Below, piece after piece: positions 59,601-60,947 of a DNA stretch of 64,000 nt (its first letter is position 1; each line of letters begins with the position of its first letter). The translations under genes were made by a program, and so were the position numbers. Source of the DNA: Candidatus Parcubacteria bacterium (lineage in GTDB: Bacteria > Patescibacteriota > Patescibacteriia > UBA1558 > GWA2-36-10); assembly GCA_018669975.1 (NCBI GenBank), contig JABHSK010000001.1, forward strand, positions 24,394 through 88,393, in the 5' to 3' direction. Under the pieces are notes generated by a model. The model had not been told where the DNA came from, did no database searches, and saw only the letters and a program-made list of their open reading frames with translations.

Positions 59601-60947
59601 ATGTGGAAAAAAGGCGATGTATTAGTGGAGGGTAAAACCAAAAGAATCTTCGATGCAGAAGCTACTCACACCGATACCAAGCACTCGGGTCATCCTGTAA
59701 TAGTAGAAAGTAAGCCGGATATCACGGCTTTCGATGATCCCACAAAAACCAAACAAATTGAGGCCAAGGCAGCCTTTGCCACCTCTACAACCTGCCGAGT
59801 GTTTGAACTATTAAAAGCTGCTGGTATTCCAGTAGCTTACTATCAGCAAGTCTCCCCTACTGAATTTCTAGCTGAACAATGTACTATGATTCCGCTAGAA
59901 ATGGTGGCTAGGCGATATGCAGTAGGTAGTTATCTCAAACGTCATCCAGAACTAGTTTGTAAAGAAGACGAGCAACCGCATCGTTTTCACAAATTAGTTT
60001 GTGAATTTTTCCTGAAAACTACCCGCGGTGAATTGATTCTGCCAGATGGAACTCGCCTAGTCGAAGGTCTAAAACCAGAGGCTGGTGAAGAAGATCCTTT
60101 TATCGCCAATCCAATGGCTATGAACTGGAAACTTTCTCATCCTAAGTTACCCGCCTGGGTAGCAGAAGCCGATCTAAATATGAGCGTCAATCCCAATGCC
60201 ATTCTTCCTGGAACTCTAGGTAGCTCCAAAGAGCGCACCCACCAGATAGTAGATTACCTACAGCGTGTCTTCTTAGTTCTAGAAGGTGCCTGGACTACTC
60301 TGGGTCTACGATTGATCGATATGAAGATCGAATTCGGCATAGACTCTGCTGGTCAACTACGTGTAGCTGATGTCATTGACAATGACAGTTGGCGTCTACG
60401 CACCCATGACTGGGAAGAACTCAGTAAGCAGGCTTTCCGCGATGGCGAAAGCTTGGATGAGGTCGAGCTCAAATACGGAACAGTGGCTGGACTAGTTGAA
60501 AGATTCCGGATTCCTAACCAGGCACTTATCTGCTGGCGTGGATCACTCAGTGATGATATCAAGGGTCCATCAACATCTACCATTCCTGGTATCACTATCG
60601 ATTATGTAACCATGTCTGGACACAAGTCCACTCAAGCATGCCTAATCGAACTGGAAAGAATCATGGGTAAATACCCTGACGGTGGCGTCATAGTGGTCAA
60701 GGTCGGTCGAAGTAATGGTCTAGGACCAATCCTAGCCGCTCACACCACCTGGCCTGTCATCGCCGTCCCCGCTACTATGGATTCTTTTCCTGCTGACGCT
60801 TGGAGTAGCATCCGCATGCCCTCTCATGTTCCTTTAGCAACAGTTTGGCCAGAAAAAAATGCCATCGAATTGGCTCTCAATATTCTGGCACGAACAAACC
60901 CATTGGTATATGCATTGCGCCAACGGGAAATTGAAGATCTAGATTAA
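59601..60947 (+). CDS. Bifunctional PurC-PurE fusion (SAICAR synthetase N-terminal, AIR carboxylase-like C-terminal; PAICS-like architecture).
   Basis: N-terminus: [38 protein letters not shown] (PurC). C-terminus: [30 protein letters not shown] (PurE-like). About 50% GC. Confidence 0.7.
   Translation: [448 protein letters not shown]

What the first reader, a model, noticed from the sequence alone, without database searches (positions are those of the whole stretch)
59601..60947. PAICS-like PurC-PurE fusion gene in a genome context that otherwise shows no purine-biosynthesis genes
A single 448-aa ORF joins a SAICAR-synthetase (PurC) domain to an AIR-carboxylase/mutase-like (PurE) domain. This is the order seen in animal PAICS, and such fusions are uncommon in bacteria. 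It sits alone (no purK, purB, purM and so on nearby) in the GC-rich segment of a reduced-metabolism genome, so it may function in salvage or repair of AIR/CAIR or be a recent acquisition. PurE-like motifs are partly degenerate ([13 protein letters not shown] versus the canonical GGAAHLPG), so activity or class is uncertain.
Basis: partly seen in the sequence, partly recalled or inferred. Interest (0 to 1): 0.6.

Follow-up and report, generated by a model that had tools for sequence, protein, structure and literature searches.

The report
Bacterial PAICS-type purine enzyme gene
This gene encodes an intact two-in-one purine-synthesis enzyme of the type animals use (PAICS); the type turns out to be common in small-genome Patescibacteria and some other bacteria, so it is an ordinary member of a known but little-discussed family.

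Summary
The 448-aa ORF at 59601-60947 (+) is real. It is a PurC-PurE fusion: SAICAR_synt 5e-37 and AIRC 9e-15. Its closest solved structures are silkworm and human PAICS over both halves.

This marks a class II PurE, a direct AIR carboxylase that needs no PurK. Of the human active-site residues, 13/18 (carboxylase site) and 21/24 (synthetase site) are identical, including every side chain given a stated role.

The fusion is not rare. At least 577 GTDB species genomes encode a relative. Most are Patescibacteria; some are Verrucomicrobiota, Xanthobacteraceae, Tepidisphaerales and Dependentiae.

In 62 related fusion loci, purB is adjacent in 16, purM is nearby in 9 and purL in 7, and class I purE is never present. 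Unfused PAICS-type purC loci carry class I purE in 10 of 16.

In this genome the gene is a solitary, self-contained transcription unit. No other pur gene or remnant lies within about 83 kb. Its GC3 is 4.7 sd above its neighbours, which suggests lateral acquisition.

I could not check whether the rest of the pathway lies elsewhere on the 844-kb contig.

Verdict: a new member of a known kind, of modest interest.

The parts
59601..60947 (+). PAICS-type bifunctional gene (448 aa): class II AIR carboxylase plus SAICAR synthetase
   Evidence: ORF. Pfam SAICAR_synt + AIRC. Best PDB matches are animal PAICS by sequence and by fold (AF2 pLDDT 84.6; Foldseek 6yb8 4e-32, 4ja0 7e-31).
59601..60497 (+). 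SAICAR synthetase (PurC) domain, residues about 1-299. Carries a ~20-residue insertion relative to human PAICS between K139 and D165, and a second, longer one around residues 198-217
   Evidence: PF01259. 21 of 24 human SAICARs-site residues are identical, including G11-K12-T13-K14, E100, K139, D165, K242, E244, D257, D262-S263-W264-R265, K276 and R280 (residue list from PMC9376930). The inserted region is confidently modelled and conserved in the family.
60516..60944 (+). Class II PurE (AIR carboxylase) domain, residues about 306-448
   Evidence: PF00731. G314-S315-x-S317-D318, S339-x-H341-K342 and G369-R370-S371-N372-G373-L374 are identical to human PAICS G273/S274/S276/D277, S301/H303/K304 and G330-L335. 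BLAST gives human AIRc 1.7e-17 against the best class I PurE at 7e-10. No class I PurE structure reaches E <= 0.001 by sequence.
59527..59555 (+). Promoter-like site (TTTAAA-17-TAAAAT) upstream of the gene
   Evidence: Consensus scan. The count in the region is not above shuffles, so this is weak evidence.
59587..59593 (+). Shine-Dalgarno-like GAAAGGA, 7 nt before the ATG
   Evidence: Read directly from the sequence.
60962..60989 (+). Intrinsic-terminator-like hairpin (CCATCCCC-TCGG-GGGATGG) with a T-run, 15 nt after the stop codon
   Evidence: Together with the convergent pyrG gene (61107-62717, minus strand) it makes the gene a monocistronic unit.

Best explanation
The gene encodes a functional bacterial PAICS-type bifunctional enzyme.

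The C-terminal domain is a class II PurE. It carboxylates aminoimidazole ribonucleotide (AIR) directly with CO2 to give CAIR, without ATP, PurK or N5-CAIR. The conserved histidine (H341) acts as general base.

The N-terminal domain is a SAICAR synthetase. It phosphorylates CAIR with ATP-Mg and condenses it with aspartate to give SAICAR.

Together these are steps 6 and 7 of the 10-step 'animal-type' de novo purine pathway. One gene replaces purK, class I purE and purC.

Shown here: domain architecture, class II signature, conserved active-site residues, PAICS-like fold, and linkage of orthologues to purB, purM, purL and purH in relatives.

Inferred: enzymatic activity. Also inferred, at my estimate of about 0.65, is that the remaining pathway genes lie elsewhere on this organism's 844-kb chromosome. 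A further inference is that the gene reached this lineage by lateral transfer from another, GC-richer bacterium, probably a Patescibacterium, since its nearest relatives are all Patescibacteria.
For: Identity of the protein:
- Pfam and NCBIfam assign PurC and PurE halves.
- Animal PAICS is the top PDB match by sequence over both halves: 6e-53 and 6e-46, against 3e-17 for the best stand-alone PurC and 2e-5 for the best stand-alone PurE, which is the class II enzyme of Treponema denticola.
- It is 36.5% identical to human PAICS. 13/18 AIRc-site and 21/24 SAICARs-site residues are identical, using the residue list from PMC9376930.
- The AF2 model has pLDDT 84.6 and pTM 0.86. The top Foldseek hits are 6yb8, 4ja0 and 2h31.
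- 20 diverse family members keep all these residues invariant or nearly so.

Genomic context in relatives (62 GTDB fusion loci):
- purB is present in 17 (within 400 bp in 16), purM in 9, purL in 7 and purH in 5.
- Class I purE is present in 0 and purK in 1.
- Among 16 unfused PAICS-type purC loci, class I purE is present in 10 and purK in 4. This complementary pattern is what a PurK-independent class II enzyme predicts.

The gene itself:
- It has its own SD and terminator.
- The same gene order around it is seen in four independent assemblies, and the protein is identical in the three that were checked.

Lateral origin:
- GC3 z = +4.7. PAICS GC exceeds flank GC by 0.11-0.14 in several low-GC relatives.
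- A preprint reports a scattered phylogenetic distribution of nucleotide-synthesis genes in the phylum (10.64898/2026.06.21.733656).
Against: - No biochemical test exists for any bacterial member, as far as I could find.
- No other de novo purine gene lies within about 83 kb around this gene, roughly 10% of the 844-kb contig.
- A preprint reports that 93% of Patescibacteria genomes lack de novo nucleotide synthesis. Salvage genes lie nearby: Hpt, a second phosphoribosyltransferase and a nucleoside/AMP phosphorylase homologue.
- A search with the PurM of the closest relative did not list a protein from the 844,504-bp contig among its best 120 hits. This is uninformative rather than negative, because only hits above about 52% identity were listed.
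- Five AIRc-site positions differ from human (M272R, T275L, A302G, V328K, A329V). The cited paper assigns none of them a side-chain role.
Confidence: 0.82

Rival explanations
1. Orphan enzyme in a partial pathway. The genome lacks the steps that make AIR, and the PAICS-type enzyme works on AIR, or on aminoimidazole riboside after phosphorylation, obtained from a host cell. It would feed SAICAR towards IMP only if purB and purH are present.
For: - The gene is solitary, and no pur genes lie in about 83 kb.
- Most Patescibacteria are reported to lack de novo synthesis.
- Composition suggests the gene arrived on its own.
- A ribokinase-like PfkB kinase lies 9 kb away.
Against: - 40 of 62 related fusion loci are equally solitary. 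They include large-genome Xanthobacteraceae and Verrucomicrobiota, which are unlikely to lack the pathway.
- Where neighbours are informative, they include the upstream genes purL and purM.
- No transporter or AIR-riboside kinase is linked to the gene.
- The PfkB protein scores best as ribokinase, well below that model's cut-off.
Confidence: 0.13
2. A recently acquired passenger gene with no current function, either on its way to decay or selectively neutral.
For: - Atypical GC3, z = +4.7.
- It sits next to a tRNA-Gln that has a short partial repeat of its 3' end 112 bp away.
- It has no pathway neighbours.
Against: - The ORF is intact at full family length, with all catalytic residues conserved.
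- It has its own SD and terminator.
- The same gene order around it is seen in four assemblies from different samples, and the protein is identical in the three that were checked.
Confidence: 0.04
3. The C-terminal half is not an AIR carboxylase. It is either a class I N5-CAIR mutase or a different PurE-fold enzyme such as a LarB-like carboxylase/hydrolase, so the fusion does something other than PAICS chemistry.
For: The Pfam AIRC match is partial (profile positions 26-134 of 148), and the NCBIfam purE score of 53 bits is far below the model's cut-off of 150.
Against: - The class I loop GGAAHL(P/G)G is absent, and the PAICS loop GRSNGLGP is present.
- The N-terminal GS-x-SD phosphate-binding motif that the Pfam alignment missed is present at residues 314-318.
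- PAICS is the best match by both sequence and fold.
- Neither class I purE nor purK accompanies the fusion in relatives.
- The partner domain keeps the CAIR and aspartate-binding residues.
Confidence: 0.02

Closest known systems
Animal PAICS (human P22234, PDB 2H31/6YB8; Bombyx mori PDB 4JA0), a bifunctional AIR carboxylase / SAICAR synthetase
   Same: - Same domain order, PurC then PurE, in one chain.
- Same class II PurE loops (GS-x-SD, S-x-HK, [8 protein letters not shown]).
- Same SAICARs motifs (GKTK, [10 protein letters not shown], K...R aspartate clamp).
- 36.5% identity.
- Best sequence and fold match.
   Different: - Bacterial origin.
- An extra ~20-residue insertion after the FFLK strand, and a second, longer one around residues 198-217.
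- It lacks the animal C-terminal tail.
- In a neighbour-joining tree the animal sequences form their own clade, and the window protein sits inside a Patescibacteria clade. It is therefore not a recent eukaryote-to-bacterium transfer.
- Octamer formation was not tested.
Uncharacterised bacterial 'AIR carboxylase family protein' or IMG 'PAICS' proteins of Patescibacteria (for example P0006, P0007, P0015)
   Same: Full-length orthologues, 53-61% identical, with the same architecture and invariant residues.
   Different: - The window protein is no closer than 61% to any database cluster.
- Many orthologues sit next to purB, purM and purL, whereas this one is solitary.
Stand-alone class II PurE (Treponema denticola, PDB 3RG8/3RGG)
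   Same: Same predicted chemistry: direct CO2-dependent AIR carboxylation with no PurK. It is the best stand-alone PurE match in the PDB.
   Different: Only weakly similar (E 1.8e-5), and not fused to PurC.
Bacterial three-gene route: PurK + class I PurE + PurC
   Same: Same net conversion of AIR to SAICAR. The PurC half is homologous.
   Different: - That route spends an extra ATP and passes through N5-CAIR.
- Class I PurE carries GGAAHL(P/G)G.
- In Patescibacteria relatives that keep class I purE, with or without purK, the PAICS-type purC is unfused.

Membership tests
PAICS-type bifunctional enzyme (class II PurE fused to PurC) | N-terminal SAICAR synthetase domain | tested here: met
   PF01259 at 5e-37, 128 bits against a cut-off of 20. 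The fold matches PurC structures with target-normalised TM-score up to 0.86.
PAICS-type bifunctional enzyme (class II PurE fused to PurC) | C-terminal PurE/AIRC domain in the same polypeptide, in the order PurC then PurE | tested here: met
   PF00731 at 9.3e-15, 54.9 bits against a cut-off of 30, residues 330-436. Both halves align to 4ja0 and 2h31 in the same order.
PAICS-type bifunctional enzyme (class II PurE fused to PurC) | Class II PurE active-site loops (G-S-x-S-D; S-x-H-K; G-R-S-N-G-L) rather than the class I G-G-A-A-H-L | tested here: met
   G314, S315, S317, D318, S339, H341, K342 and G369-L374 are identical to human. Ten class I PurEs from related loci all carry GGAAHL(P/G/A)G.
PAICS-type bifunctional enzyme (class II PurE fused to PurC) | SAICARs ATP, Mg, CAIR and aspartate-binding residues | tested here: met
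   21 of 24 residues of the human site model are identical. The differences are G42/N43 to D45/D46, and D133, which falls in the insertion.
PAICS-type bifunctional enzyme (class II PurE fused to PurC) | PurK-independence, expected to show as absence of purK and class I purE beside the gene | tested here: met
   Class I purE is present in 0/62 fusion loci and purK in 1/62. In unfused PAICS-type purC loci the figures are 10/16 and 4/16. None lies in this window. This is contextual evidence only.
PAICS-type bifunctional enzyme (class II PurE fused to PurC) | Catalytic activities EC 4.1.1.21 and EC 6.3.2.6 | not testable with these tools
   Needs an enzyme assay or complementation of E. coli purC, purE and purK mutants.
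PAICS-type bifunctional enzyme (class II PurE fused to PurC) | Homo-octamer with a PurE core, as in the human and silkworm enzymes | not tested
   Only a monomer model was made.
De novo purine pathway gene set in this genome | Presence of purF, purD, purN/T, purL, purM, purB and purH in the same genome | tested here: inconclusive
   None lies in about 83 kb around the gene. The rest of the 844,504-bp contig could not be read. The PurM search did not list that contig.
Class I PurE (N5-CAIR mutase) | 70s loop G-G-A-A-H-L-P-G and partnership with PurK | tested here: not met
   The loop reads GRSNGLGP. No purK is nearby. No class I structure passes E <= 0.001 by sequence.

The most novel reading that the evidence does not exclude
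This is the only de novo purine gene in an otherwise salvage-dependent 844-kb Patescibacteria genome. It was acquired laterally as a single cassette and converts host-derived AIR or aminoimidazole riboside into SAICAR. That would be an intermediate-scavenging shortcut into purine synthesis by an episymbiont.

A second reading concerns the family rather than this gene. The large and diverse bacterial PAICS clade may be the source of the animal PAICS fusion.
Probability: 0.12. Interest if true: 0.6.

Novelty: new member of a known kind. Interest (0 to 1): 0.3.

Why it matters
It corrects two impressions.

First, the PAICS architecture with a class II, PurK-independent AIR carboxylase is usually presented as an animal feature. 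It is in fact widespread in Patescibacteria, and also occurs in Verrucomicrobiota, Xanthobacteraceae, Tepidisphaerales and Dependentiae.

Second, finding it in a 'bare' genome does not by itself signal an odd salvage function. In relatives it sits in purine operons.

The practical value is modest:
- It marks the minority of Patescibacteria that probably make their own purines.
- A class II PurE implies reliance on ambient CO2 instead of ATP.
- The accompanying PurM of these lineages is so divergent that Pfam misses it and NCBI calls it hypothetical, so automated claims that such genomes lack purine synthesis may be overstated.

Tried and rejected
- Remnants of purB, purM, purL, purQ, purH, purK or class I purE in the window and flanks, using tblastn at E <= 10. 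The only hits were the PurE half of the gene itself and a glutamine-amidotransferase match inside pyrG. In particular, the GC-rich 550 bp upstream is not a decayed purB.
- A riboswitch or leader upstream of the gene, using Rfam at E <= 1. Only the tRNA-Gln and chance-level hits appeared.
- Locating this organism's PurM by searching with the closest relative's PurM and looking for longest_contig = 844504. It was not among the best 120 hits. This is inconclusive.
- Naming metagenomic PAICS-like representatives to find eukaryotic ones. Only one, a catfish protein, carried an organism name.
- Literature searches for bacterial or Patescibacterial PAICS or PurC-PurE fusions. Nothing relevant turned up in the held library.
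- A specific eukaryote affinity of the window protein. Rejected: identity to human is a uniform 0.31-0.37 across all named bacterial members, and animals form a separate neighbour-joining clade.
- Assembly chimera as the cause of the GC jump. Rejected: the same gene order occurs in four independent assemblies.
- A conserved link between the HD-domain neighbour and PAICS. The HD gene did not recur among the neighbour clusters shared by the 89 loci.

Full report
**The observation**

A single ORF of 448 codons runs from an ATG at 59601 to a stop at 60947 on the + strand. Pfam places a SAICAR synthetase domain at the N-terminus (PF01259, 5e-37) and an AIR carboxylase domain at residues 330-436 (PF00731, 9.3e-15). 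NCBIfam's purC and purE models hit the same halves, both below their equivalog cut-offs, as expected for a divergent fused form.

A GAAAGGA Shine-Dalgarno-like sequence lies 7 nt before the ATG. A hairpin with a T-run lies 15 nt after the stop. The next gene, pyrG, is convergent. The gene is therefore a self-contained unit.

The same gene order is present in four independent assemblies: one JGI contig of 844,504 bp and three ENA assemblies. The protein is identical in the three that were checked. The locus is not an assembly chimera.

**What the protein is**

Against all PDB sequences, the best matches are the silkworm and human bifunctional PAICS enzymes (4ja0 at 6e-53, 2h31 at 6e-46). Both align over both halves. 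Stand-alone PurC reaches 3e-17 at best. Stand-alone PurE reaches 1.8e-5 at best, and that hit is the class II enzyme of Treponema denticola. No class I PurE passes 0.001.

A pairwise alignment with human PAICS gives 36.5% identity. My recalled human sequence was checked against every segment printed.

Using the active-site residue lists of a published quantum-chemical study of human PAICS (PMC9376930):
- 13 of 18 AIR carboxylase-site residues are identical. They are G273, S274, S276, D277, S301, H303, K304 and G330-R331-S332-N333-G334-L335, which map to window G314, S315, S317, D318, S339, H341, K342 and G369-L374.
- 21 of 24 SAICAR synthetase-site residues are identical.
- The five carboxylase-site differences are at positions the paper lists as part of the pocket without assigning a side-chain role.

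Ten class I PurEs encoded near unfused relatives all read GGAAHL(P/G/A)G at that position. The window protein and human PAICS both read GRSNGLGP.

An AlphaFold2 model built on a 20-sequence alignment has mean pLDDT 84.6 and pTM 0.86. Its best Foldseek matches in the PDB are human and silkworm PAICS over the full length (4e-32, 7e-31), followed by PurC structures and then PurE structures.

**How common it is**

- The word-indexed protein search lists 120 full-length fusions at 53-61% identity. Where named, all are from Patescibacteria or Parcubacteria MAGs. NCBI labels them 'AIR carboxylase family protein' and IMG labels them with the PAICS name.
- The exhaustive search of 50%-identity representatives finds 269 proteins at E <= 1e-30.
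- Besides many Patescibacteria lineages, full-length fusions at about 40% identity occur in MAGs labelled Verrucomicrobiota, Chthoniobacter, Terrimicrobiaceae, Xanthobacteraceae (including Rhodoplanes and Pseudolabrys), Tepidisphaerales and Dependentiae.
- Some record titles, such as 'uncultured Gammaproteobacteria', are probably unreliable bin labels.

The fusion is thus not rare in bacteria. I found no paper discussing it. A review of archaeal purine synthesis describes the fused PurCE protein as common in eukaryotes (PMC3261824).

**Genomic context in relatives**

I called ORFs in 89 loci, clustered them by BLAST and checked cluster representatives against Pfam.

Among the 62 GTDB loci with a full-length fusion, 22 have at least one de novo purine gene within 10 kb:

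| Gene | Fusion loci (of 62) | Unfused PAICS-type purC loci (of 16) |
|---|---|---|
| purB | 17 (16 within 400 bp, nearly always same strand) | 10 |
| purM | 9 | 9 |
| purL | 7 | 9 |
| purH | 5 | 0 |
| purQ | 3 | 9 |
| class I purE | 0 | 10 |
| purK | 1 | 4 |

The unfused loci typically carry the order purL-purQ-(purK)-purE-purM-purC-purB.

This complementary pattern is what a PurK-independent class II carboxylase fused to PurC predicts. It ties the family firmly to de novo purine synthesis.

The other 40 fusion loci are solitary, like the window's. They include all the Xanthobacteraceae and Verrucomicrobiota loci. Isolation is therefore not evidence that the pathway is absent.

**This genome**

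Pfam annotation of the called genes and tblastn with all purine proteins collected from relatives find no other de novo purine gene or remnant. The region covered runs from about 10 kb left of the window to about 9 kb beyond its right end, roughly 83 kb or 10% of the 844-kb contig.

Salvage-type genes are present nearby:
- A hypoxanthine phosphoribosyltransferase (TIGR01203, 217 bits, above its cut-off) about 6 kb downstream.
- A second phosphoribosyltransferase.
- A nucleoside/AMP phosphorylase homologue with a NUDIX gene to the left.
- A ribokinase-like PfkB kinase.

I could not read the rest of the contig. A search with the closest relative's PurM did not list a protein from that contig among its best 120 hits, but the list stops at about 52% identity, so this says little.

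A recent preprint reports that 93% of Patescibacteria genomes lack de novo nucleotide synthesis and that the genes show a scattered distribution (10.64898/2026.06.21.733656). The few hundred species that carry this fusion may be roughly the same minority as the remaining 7%. I did not count Patescibacteria species, so this is inference only. I put the probability that the remaining genes lie elsewhere on this chromosome at about 0.65.

**Composition and origin**

The gene has GC 0.46 and GC3 0.39. Thirty-five other window genes average GC3 0.266 with sd 0.026 and a maximum of 0.33, so z = +4.7. Translation-related genes in the window have low GC3, for example rplI at 0.23, so expression bias is not the cause.

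The HD-domain gene at 58066-58704 has the same composition. A tRNA-Gln lies between the two genes, with a 17-nt partial repeat of its 3' end 112 bp away.

In 30 relatives with flank GC below 0.40, PAICS averages GC 0.42 against 0.35 for the flanks. The excess reaches 0.11-0.14 in several of them.

This favours lateral spread of the gene among these bacteria. In a neighbour-joining tree the window protein groups with Parcubacteria-type sequences inside a Patescibacteria clade, and animal PAICS forms a separate clade. Identity to human is a uniform 0.31-0.37 across all named bacterial members. There is no sign of a recent eukaryotic source. The tree is a rough distance tree without an outgroup and cannot settle the deeper history.

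**Mechanism and verdict**

The best-supported reading is a working PAICS-type enzyme. The C-terminal class II PurE adds CO2 to C4 of AIR, with H341 as base. The N-terminal domain uses ATP-Mg to activate CAIR and couple aspartate.

This is the same chemistry as animal PAICS. The protein passes every sequence, structure and context criterion I could test for membership. Activity, oligomeric state and the genome-wide pathway remain untested.

It is a new member of a known kind. Interest is modest. The points worth keeping are the breadth of the bacterial PAICS clade, the clean class I / class II complementarity in Patescibacteria, and the possibility, at about 0.12, that this particular copy is an orphan used to scavenge an intermediate.

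Noticed in passing
window 55875-55958 and 56031-56114 (+), with ORF 56185-56625 (+) and 58066-58704 (+): Two tandem c-di-GMP-II riboswitch aptamers (67 and 62 bits, above the gathering score; 86% identical 69-nt repeat) lie upstream of a 146-aa protein with a weak receiver-domain match. An HD/HDOD/HD_5-domain protein, possibly a c-di-GMP phosphodiesterase type, lies 2 kb away. This is a small c-di-GMP signalling cluster in a reduced genome.
   Followed up: partly
window 59110-59450, both strands; ORF 59159-59434 (-): A GC-rich stretch of about 340 nt between tRNA-Gln and the PAICS gene folds much better than shuffles on both strands (z -4.95 and -5.42). 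The minus strand carries a 91-aa arginine-rich ORF with a strong AAAGGAGG-N5-ATG start and no family match. It could be a structured RNA, a small protein or transferred junk; this is undecided.
   Followed up: partly
window 53502-54497 (-) and 54588-54908 (-): Two ORFs have GC 0.57 and 0.50 and GC3 0.72 and 0.66, in a genome with GC3 about 0.27. Neither has a Pfam or NCBIfam match. They look like a clearly foreign patch, and it is present in all assemblies of this organism.
   Followed up: partly
L009:13438-14625 (+) and its homologues P0274-P0393; also L007:18841-20028: The PurM (AIR synthetase) encoded near PAICS in Parcubacteria relatives has no Pfam hit. It scores only 60.7 bits on TIGR00878, against a cut-off of 236. 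NCBI names nearly all homologues 'hypothetical protein', while IMG calls them cyclo-ligase. Automated inventories may therefore under-report purine synthesis in these lineages.
   Followed up: partly
L048, L050, L056, L058, L061, L065, L068, L073, L075, L077: Patescibacteria MAGs carry an unfused PAICS-type purC inside compact operons ordered purL-purQ-(purK)-purE(class I)-purM-purC-purB. In three of these loci a DHFR gene lies about 7 kb upstream. This may be the unfused ancestral state, or a fission product of the fusion.
   Followed up: partly
L003 10001-11353 and L004 4506-5858: In another Patescibacterium the PAICS gene (GC 0.49 against flank 0.38) sits with five small ORFs of unknown function, between the tuf/S10 ribosomal operon and fusA-rpsG-rpsL. 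It looks like an insertion into a normally conserved gene block.
   Followed up: no
window 58976-59049 (-), with 58857-58873 and 58969-58985: A tRNA-Gln(UUG) separates the two GC-elevated genes (HD and PAICS). A 17-nt imperfect copy of the region around its 3' end lies 112 bp away, possibly a remnant of an integration site.
   Followed up: no
L005:16277-16855 (-) (about window 67.2-67.7 kb); L091 14622-16505; L092 1-175: Purine and nucleotide salvage genes lie just outside the window. They are a hypoxanthine phosphoribosyltransferase (above the NCBIfam cut-off), a second phosphoribosyltransferase, and a Glycos_transf_3/PYNP_C phosphorylase next to a NUDIX hydrolase.
   Followed up: partly
window 32145-32481 (+); 10689-12425 (-) and 12422-13507 (-): An RNase P RNA class A (251 bits) is present. 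So is an [FeFe]-hydrogenase large subunit, next to an ORF that corresponds to a NuoF-like (Complex1_51K) gene in another assembly of the organism. These are typical fermentative Patescibacteria features.
   Followed up: no
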